Below, one piece after another: positions 9,001-15,000 of a stretch of 64,000 nt of DNA; position 1 is the stretch's first letter, and each line of letters opens with the position of its first letter. The position numbers were made by a program. The stretch is from Fimbriosthenelais zetlandica (taxonomy: Eukaryota): the NCBI GenBank assembly GCA_977030845.1, contig OZ365112.1, forward strand, positions 5,270,001 to 5,334,000, given 5' to 3'.

Positions 9001-12000
9001 AGAAGGTTTAAATTTCAATGCTTAGTTCTTTGGCTTTGTTCGTCTCCACAAAGGGGGTGGTGTAGAGCCCCCAACGCGCGACACTCACCCATCAGAAGCT
9101 AGTAGTATATGGTGTCAGGACTTTGCAGCCATGTCTTATAGTAGTATAGGCAAATGAACCTTCTTTGATGGTCCCGAATCCACACCAGCTTCCCAGAATA
9201 GGCGAAGTATTAGTGATTTTTGTTATGAATTAATAAAGAACAGCTCTTTACATGAAAGTAAAACCCCTCTGGCATAGTTAATTCAATTCAATTAATGGTA
9301 ATCTAGCTCTAGAAGCAGCAGCCTGCAGCACTCTCGAGAAATGCATTTTGATGAAATATTAACCGATCATATTCAGATGCGGAGGCAAATGTGTGGACGG
9401 CCATGTGATAAAGGCTGCATTCGTTAATACCATCTGACACGGCGGGGGATGAAAATATGTTTATGGCGAGGGTTTGTAATGGTCATTTGAGGCACTTAGT
9501 GATTAAGTGTTAGACCACATACACTAAGTCCCCGGAGTGACAAGTACAACGCGCGAGTCCCTCCCTATTAGTTTGATATATGGAGCAGCTCGCTGACATG
9601 TGCATGGGCACGACAAGGCTTCACAGCCTTAACAAAACCAAACTATGTGTGGCTGCCCTGCCCTGGGACACATTCCTCACTAGGATACACCCTATTTACA
9701 TAATTATACCAAGCATGGCTTAGGGAATTCACCTCGCCATCTTGTGTGATGTGGGATGTACCTTGTAGGGCTTTGACACCAAATGCCAGCGGCTGTTGAC
9801 GAGGCCTATCCAACCATGCGATATCGGCATTACAATGATTAACAGACGGACTTTAGCCGGTAGAAACAAGGATGGAAAATGCAGGTCTGCAAGGGTTATT
9901 ACTCCAATACACTCTCAGACGGTTTCACATTGGAAGACTAGCCGGGTTTGGAGCTGGCAACGAGAAAGAGAAGCATGAGAGGATGACAATCGATGGAAAT
10001 GGGGTTAGATACTGCTAGTAAATAGAGAGAGCGGGGAAGCTCCAGCAACATGCAAAGTAATTGAAGGCACGGCAGATGAAAGACAACAGCCTCTAATGTT
10101 ATTTGCGTGCTATCCTGTCTGCTATAGACTGTATTTTTGTACCATAGTGCATTTCACGTGTTGTCAAGACAAACACACACCCAAAATAACCACTGCTTGG
10201 AAACAGATTACTATTTTGTCACCCATCTGAAAACGTAAGATCTGCCGGATCATATTCGTCTTTGAAGCACAGAATCTTCAATTTGTTGGCAATATCTGTT
10301 CATGAAAGCACACTAAGTCTTGGTATATATATATATAGTTGTCTCAGAATCTCCAACCAAATGTTCAAAGCGAGAATGTCAATATGAAATATAACCATGA
10401 CATTTTATAATATGAATTATTTAAACATGCCAAGGATAAGACATAAATGGACGGACAAATTAATCCCTTTCTGAACGTTGTCTGTCTGTAAAGCAAAATA
10501 TTCGTGTCTTTCCCAATCCGGAATATATCTAAATCTCCCGGAATCTACCTGATTACATCTATACAATTGTTATATTTTGATTAATATGTCTCTTAATGAT
10601 TAATTATCCTATTGAGTATATACGGAGCGATGAAGGAACAAACACATAGGAGTACAGTCCAAGCACTACTGACTTGTGTATCTAGTCTTTCTTTATTTTT
10701 AGGGCAAAAGACAAAACAAGGTTTGAAGAATGAGTCATGCTCATATGATGTAAGGTTACAGGCTTGTACATACACTGTAGGAGAAAAGATGGTAATAGAC
10801 CTTTTGAGGGAAAATTAATATTAGGAGAAAACTAGAATATAACATTACCCCCGGTCTCCCTAAAAATGTTTGAAGGTGAAACCTGGAAGTTATGTGAAAG
10901 TGATATTTGTAAGAGAAATTTGGAATAAGTTACGGAAATTATTAGAAATAGAAATTAAATGACATCATTTGAGAATACTACGTGTATGAATGGTAAGACG
11001 TAGAAAGCTTGACATGAACTGTAAATTTTTTGTATAATCTAATTAAGCAAGATAAGTTTATAAACGCAAGATTACATGGGTACTCTTAAGTAACTTTCTA
11101 TCATCTATTTAAGACCTTTTACATTTAATAACTAAAGAAGATTAGGACAGTTTGTCCAAATCCCATGTTATACGTCTATTTAGTTGATGGGAAATTAAAA
11201 TAATAAAACATTAACTCCAGGATACTCAATAACTAACTCGAAAACCATCGAGACAATCTAAAAATGGATAAACGGCTAAATATAAGTACTGTAACTAGAA
11301 TACATTTACATATATGACTGGCCATTTTCCAGTAAGTATGGTTATACAGAGGATTACACCAACTTAAACCTAAGTAAAATATGAGTAAGTGAGATATATG
11401 TGTGAAACTCATTATCTGTATCAGGCAGTTTGACTCACAAAGGTCAGTTGCATCTGCTCACCAAATGCCCCACATGACAATCATAGTCACCCCGAGATGC
11501 AAAGGGATCTATACCACTGAAGTGTACCACAAGGCATGGTTGCTGGTGGTCAGATTAGAGATGCACTGAGTGAATGCTCCGGCGTGCAGCAGTTACAACT
11601 AGCTAGGAGGTAACTGCCTCCGAGGGGTTCACATCCCAAACCCCTATAGGATCACTGCAGTTCCCTTATCTGTGGGGGTATTGCAATACCACCCACTGGG
11701 TAACTGGGGGCACCCACTCATCACAAGGAAGGCATACAAGAATCTTCCCCCACACCATGTGTCAGACTATTAATCAATACACAGCAAGGCTGGGGTGATA
11801 GAGGATGACACATGAAACTTAAGCAAACATCCGCAAACCACCCAAGATCATCTCCCCACACTGACACAGACAATTTGTCACAATCATCATGTTTACCAGT
11901 TTACAGTTGTTCATTTCGTCCCACACAGTTATACAGCTGTTAAAATTAATATAAATGGCTGTGAGGACTTAGAGTATTATACATAACTAACTGAACTCAT

Positions 12001-15000
12001 TCCTGGCATCTGAGTAACATATCTATGGGATTACAACATGCAATTAACCTCTAACATTCATATAGCATCTTTATTTCCTCTTAAGAAATGTCCACCTTGT
12101 CTATCCCCTAGTCCAGATCGTCCCAGTATAGCAAAACCAACAGAATCACGAGCAGAAATATCTGCAACTGGAGGTGGAGGAGCATAATCAGCAAAACCTT
12201 GTGTAAGGGTCCTATCACACACCACGGCTCCCGGTGGCAGGGGTGTAGTACCCCCGGGAGTATGGTGACATGGGCTCCGGTGAGCATCACTGGGGTCCAT
12301 GGGGTCCCCCGAGGGAAAATGTGCTGTTCCATGGTCTAGGTGTTATAGACTAGTCTAAATATTCAGAAATGTCGCTCTAAAAAGTCCCTAAGGCATTTTT
12401 GAGGAAAAGCTGGCAAACAAGTGCTCCAGGGGCACTCGGGGGCGCTGTTCACTTTTCCTGAAAATTGTACCAGTCTATTACCGTTTATCACCTGAATGTC
12501 CTCCAATTACCTGGGCACCTTCCTCAGATGAATTGGATCCAGACTGGACAAAAGGCTCTTCCAAAGCACCAGCCTGTTGTAAATTCCTAAGCCTAGTTCT
12601 GGTCAAATGGCGCACAGGAATTCTAGATAACTCCTTTGCAGTTTTAGCAATAGCAGAGAATTTGTCCTTCTCCATAAGCACAGGCACAGAAAATCACTGC
12701 TAAATAAAAATAAGACTCCATATGCATATTGATAGTCCAGTCCACAGGAGCTGCAGAGAGGGAGGCAGAAAAGGGCCGCAGAGACTCGAGCAAGTCCCTG
12801 AGTGGAGAGCAGCTCACGCTCACTAAGCAAACTTTAGCAAAATTAAACACTATATAATGAGGTGTAGAATCACCCCCACCAAAAGAAAAAGGCCCCAGCG
12901 AGGCTGAGGGGTAGCCAGGACCGGGTCCATCTCCACCAGATGTTATATTTTGATTAATATGTCTCTTAATGATTAATTATCCTATTGAGTATATACGGAG
13001 CGATGAAGGAACAAACACATAGGAGTACAGTCCAAGCACTACTGACTTGTGTATCTAGTCTTTCTTTATTTTTAGGGCAAAAGACAAAACAAGGTTTGAA
13101 GAATGAGTCATGCTCATATGATGTAAGGTTACAGGCTTGTACATACACTGTAGGAGAAAAGATGGTAATAGACCTTTTGAGGGAAAATTAATATTAGGAG
13201 AAAACTAGAATATAACACAATCTATGCCACAGTATATTATACTCAACAGGATGATCGCCCCTACAGTATGCTGCAGGCGCCCCATACAGTATCAGCTATC
13301 GGGATTATGTGAAATGCCTGTAGGCAGAGTGGTGAAGGGCAAAGTCCAGAGGCTTTAGTGATATATATGCATGCATGGTGAGGGAAACAAGAGATGATGA
13401 AGCTATCCTCAGACGCATAATACAGCTAAGTGCTTTCCCAATGTACAGACTTAAGAAAATCCCTCCATCCTTCCCACTGCCTCACAATAGGGACTTGTTA
13501 AAGAGAGCTTGCGTACACATCCCACTTCCATACAATGGATGTCTTTTCGAAATGCCACAACAGTCATAATGTATACTGGGGGAAGGGCTGATGATATACG
13601 GCATGGCATTCAGAAAACCGAGGCCTTTCAAAACGCAATGTCCTCTAATGCGTCCCATCCCATATAAAACAACATTGCTTCAAGACTGCAGTTGCCAGAT
13701 CAAAGCTGCCATTTTTCAACGACGATTTTTTACTCTCAGGAACAGACTGCATGAGAGAGGGAGAGAAAATATGTTTCATGGTCAGCCAGACGTCCGACAC
13801 CAAACCTTCATTATTCAGGAACCCTGTCCATTAGTATCACTAGAAATTAGAATAACAACAGAAAGCCGTTATAATAACAGATGCATTATTAAATAACAGC
13901 CTGAACTAATGGAATATGGATAGTTGGGGAGGAAAACTGATCTGTCTAATATATAATAGATTAGAATGCCATGGGCAACCTGCTCCGAGTATCCTATTCA
14001 GGTCATGACACCAGAGTTCAGTTCATGACTCGGTGACTTTGATTATGTATCAAATGTCCTGTCAATCTCGACTTACTACTGACACCTGACCATTTCTATA
14101 GTATCCAGTAGTGGTCAGAGTACAGAACAGATAGCTATCACACGTGGTCATACATAACACAGTCTAACCAGCACACAGGCCTCTCAGTCCAGTGTTGACA
14201 CTGTCAATTTGAGGTGGACTTTCAATGGGCTGCTTCTGTGTCCCTACTTCAGTTGAGTGGTCTAGGATATGTTGACATTTAGCATGCCAGTATTGGCACT
14301 GGTGTGCTGCAAGAATGTTTGGAGGCATATCTGAACATACTATAACAAATACGTAACAGCAATGTATAAAGAGGCTATATCAATAGCAATAAATGTGGAA
14401 TGGCAATTGGCAAAATGAAACAAATACCTTGGAAATCTTTAGGTTCATGCAAATAGCTTTCTAATATCAAATACCATAGGAATAGTCTCTATTCAGATAT
14501 ATTTATAGCCAATATGCACTAGGCCGACGAAAGGTCAGGACAATTGATAGGTCATATTTGTACTGCTTGAAAGGAGGCTGCAGGGGTCAATAAGATGGAG
14601 ATGTAGAGCGGCAGCGACTGACCTTTGGCTGTCCGGACCAGGGATACACTATCTGGCCATGGCTGAGTGAGATACTTGTGTCTAGAAATAAGCCTTACAA
14701 AGTATACACTTACGGTTCGGTGCTGGGCGACCGCAGGCATTCCTGATGCCTTGTGTTAGCAACGACGAGGCAAAGACAGGAGGTAGATGAGGGAGGAGAA
14801 TGGTACTACAAGCCCTGGCTTTATCATCAATACAAAACCACAATCCACTCCAACATACAAGTAGTTACTGATTACGACTACAGGAGTTGGTGCTGTGAAG
14901 GAATGACTTAGTTATCCTACTAGTTGCATAATGTCCTGTTGGTGTGAGAGATGGGGAAGTAGGAGGTTTGTGAGAGAGAGGAGGCTGGAGGATGGGACTG

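What the first reader, a model, noticed from the sequence alone, without database searches (positions are those of the whole stretch)
10568..13217. Very young, pol-less LTR element with identical LTRs, a tRNA-Ala PBS and only micro-ORFs
All cis signals are intact: two LTRs identical by eye over 277 bp, 9-bp terminal inverted repeats, a CAAT TSD, an 11-nt tRNA-Ala PBS, a PPT and AATAAA. Yet the 2.1-kb interior has no RT, RNaseH or integrase. Since LTRs are identical at integration, this insertion is very recent and must have been mobilised in trans, like TRIM/LARD-type elements. At 2.65 kb with small sense-strand ORFs it may be an undescribed non-autonomous family parasitising an active gypsy-like partner.
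Basis: partly seen in the sequence, partly recalled or inferred. Interest (0 to 1): 0.7.

Follow-up and report, generated by a model that had tools for sequence, protein, structure and literature searches.

The report
Young pol-less LTR retrotransposon copy
This is a complete but protein-poor LTR retrotransposon copy that must rely on another element's enzymes to move; it is an ordinary kind of genomic parasite, with one short stretch that looks like real coding sequence of unknown origin.

Summary
Window 10568-13217 is a 2650-bp element with two 277-bp LTRs identical at 277 of 277 positions. It has TG..CA ends, a 9-nt terminal inverted repeat and a 4-bp CAAT duplication on both flanks. The element lies on the minus strand. 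An 11-nt primer-binding site lies 2 nt inside the 5' LTR; it matches the 3' end of tRNA-Ala as printed in a preprint. A 17-nt purine-rich tract abuts the 3' LTR, and each LTR carries an AATAAA.

No reverse transcriptase, RNase H, integrase, protease, gag or env domain was found in the element or anywhere else in the 64-kb window. It is therefore a non-autonomous LTR retrotransposon, and trans-mobilisation is inferred, not shown.

"Very young" needs tempering: zero differences in 277 bp allow up to about 1-5 million years.

The micro-ORF lengths are as chance gives. The exception is a roughly 210-nt island (12080-12289) with strong codon-like periodicity and no detectable relative.

At 2.65 kb the element falls between strict TRIM and LARD, in a size range already described as a continuum. 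Copy number, partner and catalogue status could not be tested, because no eukaryotic collection was available. Verdict: new member of a known kind, of modest interest.

The parts
10564..10567 (.). Target-site duplication, left copy (CAAT)
10568..10844 (-). 3' LTR in the element's own (minus) orientation. 277 bp, TG..CA ends, 9-nt terminal inverted repeat.
   Evidence: 277 of 277 positions identical to the other LTR
10692..10697 (-). AATAAA hexamer in the 3' LTR (sense strand). Its role as a poly(A) signal is inferred only.
   Evidence: read directly
10845..10861 (-). Polypurine tract abutting the 3' LTR: 14 purines of 17, with a run of five G close to the LTR.
   Evidence: only 0.48% of interior sense 17-mers are as purine-rich
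10845..12940 (-). Internal region, 2096 bp, with no recognisable retroelement protein domain. It has three compositional parts. In sense order these are: GC 0.48 (12940-12060), GC 0.45 with CpG o/e 0.19 (12059-11400), and GC 0.30 (11399-10845).
12058..12300 (-). ATG-started ORF of 80 codons plus stop (frame A). It lies in a 94-codon open segment, 12061-12342, which is the only one of six frames free of stops over that span.
   Evidence: No relative in Pfam, PDB, ESM Atlas or genome contigs.
12080..12289 (-). Island of codon-like 3-periodicity. The coding strand and frame are not settled. In frame A, G is 0.38 at codon position 1 and T is 0.44 at position 3.
   Evidence: z of 8.0 to 9.7. It is the top of all 210-nt windows; outside the element only the 21-nt tandem array comes near.
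12108..12332 (-). Overlapping ATG ORF of 74 codons plus stop (frame B). Its ATG sits in an ACCATGG context, and its C-terminal half is hydrophobic (19-aa Kyte-Doolittle maximum 2.66).
   Evidence: No Pfam or PDB match.
12478..12687 (-). 5' micro-ORF, 69 codons from a GTG, with an internal ATG at 12673-12675. Periodicity is weak (z below 2), so it cannot be told from chance.
   Evidence: No Pfam, PDB or Atlas match.
12928..12938 (-). Primer-binding site: 11 nt complementary to the acceptor 3' strand plus ACCA of tRNA-Ala. A 2-nt spacer (12939-12940) separates it from the LTR.
12941..13217 (-). 5' LTR in the element's orientation, 277 bp
13065..13070 (-). AATAAA hexamer in the 5' LTR
13218..13221 (.). 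Target-site duplication, right copy (CAAT)

Best explanation
The 2650-bp stretch is one integrated copy of a non-autonomous LTR retrotransposon lying on the minus strand.

It keeps the complete set of cis signals for the LTR-element life cycle:
- promoter and poly(A) signals inside the LTRs;
- an 11-nt site that pairs with the 3' end of tRNA-Ala, to prime minus-strand DNA;
- a polypurine tract, to prime plus-strand DNA;
- TG..CA ends with short inverted repeats for an integrase.

It encodes none of the enzymes. Its RNA must therefore have been packaged, copied and inserted by proteins from an autonomous LTR retrotransposon or endogenous retrovirus elsewhere in the genome, one whose integrase makes 4-bp staggered cuts.

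The insertion is recent on an evolutionary scale, at most about 1-5 million years.

Shown: the anatomy and the absence of recognisable enzyme domains.
Inferred: transcription from the LTR, the U3/R/U5 layout, priming by tRNA-Ala, trans-complementation, and the age.

The interior carries one short stretch that is, or recently was, protein-coding. Its role is unknown.
For: - LTRs identical at 277 of 277 positions, and identity stops at the TG and CA ends.
- A 4-bp duplication on both flanks and a 9-nt terminal inverted repeat, with chance estimates of 0.0044 and 7e-5.
- A PBS identical to the last 11 nt of a printed tRNA-Ala 3' fragment, placed 2 nt from the LTR.
- A PPT with 14 purines of 17, directly at the other LTR.
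- Both spacers (2 nt at the PBS side, 2-3 nt after the G-run at the PPT side) fit the two-nucleotide end-processing known for retroviral integrases. This is established knowledge, recalled.
- No enzyme or structural domain: 0 of 10 longest segments and 0 of 89 segments of at least 20 aa below E=0.02 in Pfam.
- No CCHC, HHCC or D[ST]G motif in any frame.
- No tRNA, 5S or ribozyme in the LTRs.
- Pol-less LTR elements moved by a partner are well documented. ETn is mobilised by MusD (PMC6466679, passages). Plant non-autonomous families span 291 bp to 12.3 kb (PMC13570524, passages).
Against: - Only one copy could be examined, and no second copy, solo LTR or partner lies in the 64-kb window. The existence of a family is therefore not shown.
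- The PBS match is 11 nt, and it is to a human tRNA sequence printed in a paper, not to the host's own tRNA.
- The LTR signals are not in textbook order. The only TATATA box (sense positions 223-228 of the LTR) lies downstream of AATAAA (positions 148-153). The promoter would have to lie in the first 100 nt or so, and that is unverified.
- The sense strand is T-rich (T 0.33, A 0.27), unlike many retroelements (recalled).
- The coding-like island shows that the interior is not simply non-coding.
Confidence: 0.82

Rival explanations
1. This is a one-off derivative, not a family. An autonomous element inserted here and later lost its gag-pol region by an internal deletion or rearrangement at this locus, leaving the LTRs, PBS and PPT.
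For: Only a single copy was seen. The interior has three compositionally different parts, as a rearranged element might. A short coding-like island with no context could be a leftover of a larger gene.
Against: With identical LTRs the copy is young, so any remaining piece of gag, pol or env should still be readable. Yet 0 of 89 open segments match any such Pfam family at E<0.02. Outside the 210-nt island there is no periodicity (z below 2). A 2.1-kb interior made only of leader and untranslated sequence would be unusual for a simple deletion.
Confidence: 0.1
2. The insertion is older than it looks. The LTRs are identical because of gene conversion between them, or because the assembler collapsed two similar LTRs into one sequence.
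For: A 277-bp LTR gives little resolution. The interior is CpG-poor (o/e 0.345; 0.185 in 11400-12059), as expected of sequence long exposed to methylation. That could, however, have accumulated along the family lineage before this insertion.
Against: The 4-bp duplication, both terminal repeats, the PBS and the PPT are all intact. This is not expected after long neutral decay of the unconverted parts.
Confidence: 0.1
3. This is a chimeric element. A non-autonomous LTR backbone picked up a fragment of a host gene or of another element during reverse transcription, and the coding-like island is that captured piece.
For: The island is short and isolated. It ends in a stop and is followed by about 1.2 kb of AT-richer sequence without periodicity. 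It has no relative among retroelement families in Pfam.
Against: No donor gene was found. Pfam, PDB, ESM Atlas and genome contigs gave nothing. No poly(A) remnant lies in the interior (by eye).
Confidence: 0.15
4. This is not a retroelement. The direct repeat is the edge of a 2373-bp tandem or segmental duplication.
For: Any 1.1-copy tandem duplication produces two direct repeats around a unique middle.
Against: A duplication gives no reason for several features to coincide: TG..CA ends, a 9-nt inverted repeat, a 4-bp flank duplication, a tRNA-complementary site at the exact inner edge of one repeat, and a purine tract at the inner edge of the other. Tandem Repeats Finder reports nothing in 9000-15000.
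Confidence: 0.01

Closest known systems
Non-autonomous LTR retrotransposons of the TRIM-LARD continuum (plants; also insects, bivalves, cestodes, amphibians)
   Same: It has two LTRs, a PBS, a PPT and a duplication, and no enzymes, so it depends on a partner. Sugar beet families range from 291 bp to 12.3 kb, and most have a median under 4 kb (PMC13570524, passages). TRIM and LARD are annotated at 3.8-9.8% and 0.15-0.73% of a salamander genome (PMC9998948, passages).
   Different: At 2650 bp it is neither under 1 kb (or 1.5 kb), as for TRIM, nor over 4 kb, as for LARD. That paper states that the 1.5-4 kb range has no name. Family status is unknown here.
ETn / MusD pair of the mouse
   Same: ETn has LTRs but no coding capacity, is moved by proteins of the coding-competent MusD, and produces young, polymorphic insertions (PMC6466679, passages).
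   Different: ETn shares LTR and flanking sequence with a known partner, whereas no partner is known here. ETn is about twice as long and makes a 6-bp duplication (both recalled). Its primer tRNA also differs (recalled).
MaLR elements (THE1, MST, MT) of mammals
   Same: MaLR is a very large non-autonomous group with only traces of retroviral homology, related to ERV-L (PMC6466679, passages). Its overall size and short LTRs are similar (recalled).
   Different: MaLR is confined to mammals and makes a 5-bp duplication (recalled). The window's CpG o/e of 0.46 and lack of interspersed repeats do not look mammalian. No sequence comparison was possible.
[quoted passage not shown]
   Same: These are LTR elements of a vertebrate with no amino-acid homology to pol, and some carry an ORF of their own (PMC4585706, passages).
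   Different: The paper suggests that xretpos(L) uses tRNA-Arg, whereas this element uses tRNA-Ala. 1a11 encodes a 71-kDa Gag-like protein, and no such ORF is present here. One printed primer from the lambda-olt 2-1 LTR is absent from the window at up to 3 mismatches. Their full sequences could not be fetched.
TR-GAG elements
   Same: TR-GAG elements are non-autonomous LTR elements that keep one ORF (PMC13570524, passages).
   Different: TR-GAG is defined by a recognisable GAG ORF. The 80- or 74-codon ORF here has no gag similarity and is far shorter than a Gag protein.
Helenus, Ajax and Cassandra (TRIMs with a small-RNA gene in the LTR) and retrozymes
   Same: These are short non-autonomous LTR elements. 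Animal Helenus elements make 4-bp duplications, and their PBS regions resemble only Gypsy elements (PMC10886601, abstract and section 3.6).
   Different: This element has no tRNA-like, 5S-like or hammerhead sequence in its LTRs or anywhere else. The vertebrate Helenus primers listed are His, Leu and Lys, not Ala.

Membership tests
LTR retrotransposon (structural class) | Two long terminal direct repeats that are near-identical | tested here: met
   277 of 277 positions identical
LTR retrotransposon (structural class) | TG..CA termini with short inverted repeats, and a short target-site duplication | tested here: met
   TG/CA ends, 9-nt inverted repeat, 4-bp CAAT duplication
LTR retrotransposon (structural class) | PBS complementary to a tRNA 3' end next to the 5' LTR, and a PPT next to the 3' LTR | tested here: met
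   11 nt equal to the end of a printed tRNA-Ala fragment, 2 nt from the LTR. PPT with 14 purines of 17. The host tRNA was not available.
Autonomous LTR retrotransposon or endogenous retrovirus | gag and pol (protease, RT, RNase H, integrase) coding capacity | tested here: not met
   Pfam found no such family in 89 segments at E up to 0.1. The longest open segment is 103 aa.
TRIM (strict sense) | Total length under 1 kb (extended definition 1.5 kb) | tested here: not met
   2650 bp. The definition is from PMC10886601 and PMC13570524.
TRIM (strict sense) | No protein for mobilisation, with PBS and PPT at the ends of the interior | tested here: met
LARD | Total length over 4 kb with a long non-coding interior | tested here: not met
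   2650 bp. The definition is from PMC13570524.
TR-GAG | Retains a GAG open reading frame | tested here: not met
   No gag family and no CCHC motif
Helenus / Ajax / Cassandra | tRNA- or 5S-derived sequence inside the LTR | tested here: not met
   ARAGORN found 0 genes. Rfam found 0 hits at gathering score, and only 2 chance-level hits of other families at E up to 1.
Retrozyme | Hammerhead ribozyme in the repeats | tested here: not met
   Rfam scans
Any repeat family (multi-copy, with a shared interior) | Several genomic copies with different flanks | not testable with these tools
   No eukaryotic genome or repeat library was available. There is no other copy in the window. Bacterial and archaeal contigs, plasmids and phages gave 0.
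   Only indirect support. A tRNA-Ala primer and 4-bp duplications occur in Ty3/gypsy lineages (PMC6317226; PMC10886601). A 4-bp duplication is also typical of gamma-type retroviruses (recalled).
xretpos(L) of Xenopus | PBS for tRNA-Arg, as suggested in the paper | tested here: not met
   The PBS here matches tRNA-Ala

The most novel reading that the evidence does not exclude
The element belongs to a currently active lineage of pol-less LTR retrotransposons that carries its own very small gene. That gene is the 80-codon proline/glycine-rich ORF, or the overlapping 74-codon ORF with a membrane-like hydrophobic half. It has no relative in any library searched. Its product would help the element exploit a partner's particles, making this a minimal 'one small protein' strategy, distinct from TR-GAG and from fully non-coding TRIMs.
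Probability: 0.08. Interest if true: 0.6.

Novelty: new member of a known kind. Interest (0 to 1): 0.3.

Why it matters
If the family is multi-copy and its insertions are polymorphic, this copy marks ongoing retrotransposition in the host genome. That in turn means an active autonomous partner is supplying the enzymes, which is useful for annotation, for insertion-polymorphism markers, and for studying how parasites of parasites arise.

Elements of 1.5-4 kb are often missed or misfiled by repeat annotation (PMC13570524, passages), so a clean, fully signalled example is a good seed for describing the family.

The coding-like island is the only feature that could lift this above routine. A conserved small ORF in a pol-less element would bear on what the minimal requirements are for hitch-hiking on a partner.

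Tried and rejected
- **Plus-strand orientation.** Rejected. No TGG-started site follows the left LTR, and the sequence before the right LTR on the plus strand is pyrimidine-rich.
- **Tandem or segmental duplication.** Rejected on the coincidence of end signals.
- **Small-RNA-bearing TRIMs and retrozymes.** Rejected.
- **Micro-ORF lengths as evidence of genes.** Rejected. The longest open segment is 103 aa against a simulated mean of 107, and 50.6% of 1000 simulations reach it. There are eight segments of at least 70 aa against a mean of 4.2, reached by 4.1% of simulations. A 94-codon open frame arises in 1.4% of local shuffles per frame.
- **YWDD motif in one frame.** Treated as chance.
- **PHD-finger (ING4) matches** of the antisense translation 12112-12336. 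E is 0.6-0.87 and the cysteine/histidine pattern is absent, so chance.
- **Methylamine dehydrogenase match**, E=0.13. Chance.
- **zf-Paramyx-P** (E=0.024), **PLN_propep** and **DUF2654.** All below their cut-offs, so chance.
- **Kelch hit in the window.** An artefact of translating the 21-nt tandem array.
- **Leader RNA fold (12700-12960).** Not unusual: z=-0.62.
- **Internal repeats.** Only short pairs of chance size.
- **Spliced reading of the 5' micro-ORF.** A CAG followed by GT lies at about 12510 (by eye), but no tool predicts an intron. The two ORF-bearing segments were searched separately, and the joined step was left out.
- **Searches that found nothing.** The LTR-end 25-mer and the 80-aa ORF in genome contigs (one search gave 600 pattern matches, 0 confirmed). 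The whole element in plasmids and phages. ESM Atlas, 2 of 2 queries without a usable hit.
- **Structure prediction.** The tool did not accept jobs, so no fold comparison was made.

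
Full report
**1. The observation**

- The repeat finder returns one pair of direct repeats, 10568-10844 and 12941-13217, identical at 277 of 277 positions. A script confirms this and shows that identity stops exactly at the repeat ends.
- Each repeat starts TG and ends CA. The first and last 9 nt are perfect reverse complements.
- CAAT lies immediately outside on both sides, at 10564-10567 and 13218-13221.
- From the window's base frequencies, the chance of each feature is small: 0.0044 for the 4-nt flank match, 0.0037 for the TG and CA ends, and 7e-5 for the seven further inverted-repeat matches.
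- The total length is 2650 bp, and the window contains no N.

**2. Orientation and priming sites**

The element lies on the minus strand.

Read on that strand, the LTR at 13217-12941 is followed by 2 nt and then by a site beginning TGG. On the plus strand this site (12928-12938) reads like the 3' end of a tRNA. I searched the paper library for that 11-mer (116 papers hold it, and I opened two).
- It is the end of several tRNA fragments listed in PMC12025293 (one passage).
- It is the end of the 18-nt tRF-3021a printed in bioRxiv 10.64898/2026.01.26.701835 (passages).
- That preprint says tRF-3021a derives from human tRNA-Ala-TGC, and its Discussion also mentions tRNA-Ala-CGC (passages).

By eye, the last 11 nt agree and the 12th onward do not. 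The match therefore covers the 3' strand of the acceptor stem, the discriminator base and CCA. The host's own tRNA-Ala could not be obtained, since ARAGORN finds no tRNA gene in the window, so the true length of the pairing is unknown. The 11-mer occurs nowhere else in the window, even with one mismatch.

At the other inner edge, the sense strand of 10845-10861 has 14 purines of 17, including a run of five G just before the LTR. Only 0.48% of 17-mers of the interior sense strand are as purine-rich.

On the plus strand neither signal exists, so the orientation is settled.

The 2-nt spacer between LTR and PBS, and the 2-3 nt between the G-run and the other LTR, are what retroviral-type end processing leaves. 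This is established knowledge, recalled.

**3. Signals inside the LTR**

On the sense strand, AATAAA lies at LTR positions 148-153 (window 13065-13070 and 10692-10697). A TATATA lies at positions 223-228 (window 12990-12995 and 10617-10622).

That order is the reverse of a textbook promoter-then-poly(A) layout. If AATAAA is the poly(A) signal, transcription must start in roughly the first 100 nt. The TATATA would then lie in U5.

This is inference. No tool here predicts eukaryotic promoters.

**4. Coding capacity**

The longest open segments are 103 aa on the plus strand and 98 and 94 aa on the minus strand.
- Pfam on the ten longest gave nothing better than E=0.024, below the curated cut-off.
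- Pfam on all 89 open segments of at least 20 aa gave three families at E 0.024-0.066, and none was a retroelement family. These segments cover 92.6% of the element on each strand.
- No zinc knuckle, integrase HHCC or protease D[ST]G motif occurs in any frame. One YWDD does, which I take as chance.
- The PDB sequence search on four segments gave a best E of 0.13 and 0.6.
- ESM Atlas gave no usable hit for 2 of 2 queries.

The lack of RT, RNase H and integrase is therefore confirmed at the level these libraries allow.

ORF lengths are what chance gives. In 1000 block-wise Markov simulations the longest open segment averaged 107 aa, and 50.6% reached 103. The count of segments of at least 70 aa (8, against a mean of 4.2) was reached by 4.1% of simulations.

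**5. An unexpected feature**

A Fourier test for 3-periodicity gave z=8.9 for 12041-12340, and z=8.0 and 9.7 for 150-nt windows within 12080-12289. The rest of the interior stays below 2.

Controls:
- Among 203 other 300-nt windows of the 64 kb, the maximum was 4.4, and none reached 8.
- With a composition-normalised power in 210-nt windows, the island scores 6.2 and 5.7. The 871 windows outside the element reach at most 4.97. That window is the 21-nt tandem array, trivially periodic, and the next is 3.5.
- Autocorrelation peaks only at multiples of 3, and Tandem Repeats Finder reports no array there.

The island lies inside a 94-codon open segment of the sense strand (12061-12342). That frame is the only one of six without a stop over the span. 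It holds an ATG ORF of 80 codons (12058-12300).
- In that frame, G is 0.38 at codon position 1 and T is 0.44 at position 3. This is the G-nonG-N pattern typical of coding sequence (recalled).
- An overlapping sense ORF of 74 codons (12108-12332) starts at an ATG in an ACCATGG context and has a strongly hydrophobic half, with a 19-aa Kyte-Doolittle mean of 2.66.

I cannot decide between the two frames. Neither has a relative in Pfam, PDB or, for the first, ESM Atlas and genome contigs.

So one micro-ORF region is, or recently was, real coding sequence. It could be the element's own small gene, a leftover of a partner's gene, or a captured host exon.

A CAG followed by GT after the 5' micro-ORF looks like a splice donor by eye. 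No tool predicts an intron, so the segments were searched one by one and the joined step was left out.

No gene of the element could be identified by homology, so there are no breaks to count.

**6. Surroundings**

The window holds no partner. Of 119 open segments of at least 76 aa over the whole 64 kb, none matched RT, integrase, gag or env. The only hits were Kelch_2 and Kelch_6, both from one translated tandem array, and EbsA at E=2e-4.

No second LTR, solo LTR or interior fragment is present. Flanks of 1 kb on each side have no other copy in the window, so no empty paralogous site could be used.

The host is unknown. GC is 0.415, CpG o/e is 0.456 and TpG+CpA o/e is 1.21. This points to a methylated genome but not a mammalian one (the typical mammalian value is recalled). 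Together with the near absence of interspersed repeats within the window, I do not take the window for human.

**7. Mechanism**

[quoted passage not shown] The sequence of events would be as follows.
- It is transcribed from its 5' LTR.
- Its RNA is packaged by proteins of an autonomous element.
- It is reverse-transcribed from a tRNA-Ala primer and from the PPT.
- It is inserted by an integrase that makes 4-bp staggered cuts.

Shown: the anatomy and the lack of enzymes. Inferred: every step of the cycle.

The age is bounded rather than measured. With no difference in 277 bp, the 95% upper limits are 5.4, 2.7, 1.8 and 1.1 million years at 1, 2, 3 and 5e-9 substitutions per site per year (the rates are assumed).

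**8. Comparison with what is known**

Pol-less LTR elements are a known kind.
- TRIMs are defined as under 1 kb (PMC10886601, Introduction) and LARDs as over 4 kb.
- A 2026 survey of sugar beet describes 115 non-autonomous families from 291 bp to 12.3 kb. It states that the 1.5-4 kb range has no name and that the classes form a continuum (PMC13570524, passages).
- In vertebrates, ETn is mobilised by MusD, and MaLR is a very large non-autonomous group (PMC6466679, passages).
- Three Xenopus LTR families lack pol homology (PMC4585706, passages).
- TRIM and LARD are annotated in a salamander genome (PMC9998948, passages).
- tRNA-Ala is among the primers used by plant non-chromovirus Ty3/gypsy elements, and 6.2% of 13,566 plant elements have 4-bp duplications (PMC6317226, passages).
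- Animal Helenus TRIMs have 4-bp duplications and PBS regions like those of Gypsy elements (PMC10886601, section 3.6).

A gamma-type endogenous retrovirus, which also makes 4-bp duplications (recalled), is not excluded.

My paper searches did not turn up a described animal element with a tRNA-Ala PBS. I read only listings and the passages cited, so this is weak negative evidence.

**9. What stayed unchecked**
- Copy number, family membership, the partner, catalogue status (Dfam, Repbase), insertion polymorphism and read support all need a eukaryotic genome or a repeat library. None was available.
- Structure prediction did not accept jobs, so fold comparison was not done.
- Searches that could be run outside the window found nothing. 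The LTR-end 25-mer in bacterial and archaeal contigs gave 0. The 80-aa ORF there gave 600 pattern matches and 0 confirmed. The element in plasmids and phages gave no match.

**10. Verdict**

This is a real, cleanly signalled, evolutionarily young copy of a non-autonomous LTR retrotransposon: a new member of a known kind, unless a repeat library already holds it. The one feature worth a second look is the coding-like island at 12080-12289.

Noticed in passing
window 603-938: Tandem array of a 21-nt unit, about 16 units, with the central ones identical. Its translation (591-956, plus strand) gives the window's only Kelch Pfam hit, which is an artefact.
   Followed up: yes
window 29545-29761 and 45166-45382: Two 217-nt copies, 88% alike and 15.6 kb apart. 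Each is about 72-76% self-complementary, so this looks like a palindromic MITE-like element.
   Followed up: partly
window 53352-54212 (+): Two adjacent open segments of 144 and 142 aa. A 300-nt window starting at 53401 gives the highest period-3 score outside the element (z=4.4). Pfam gives only NGP1NT at E=0.0026, below its cut-off. This may be an exon of a host gene.
   Followed up: partly
window 14868-15688: A cluster of overlapping open segments of 76-95 aa on both strands, with period-3 z=4.2 at 15001. Pfam found nothing for three of them.
   Followed up: partly
whole window: GC is 0.415, CpG o/e is 0.456 and TpG+CpA o/e is 1.21. There are no tRNA genes and no Rfam hits at gathering score. 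Apart from the element's own LTR pair, only one interspersed repeat family recurs within the 64 kb. The host organism could not be identified.
   Followed up: partly
window 11400-12059 (inside the element): The middle third of the interior is much more CpG-depleted (o/e 0.185, with TpG+CpA o/e 1.51) than the parts either side (0.338 and 0.732). The interior may therefore be a mosaic of sequences with different histories.
   Followed up: no
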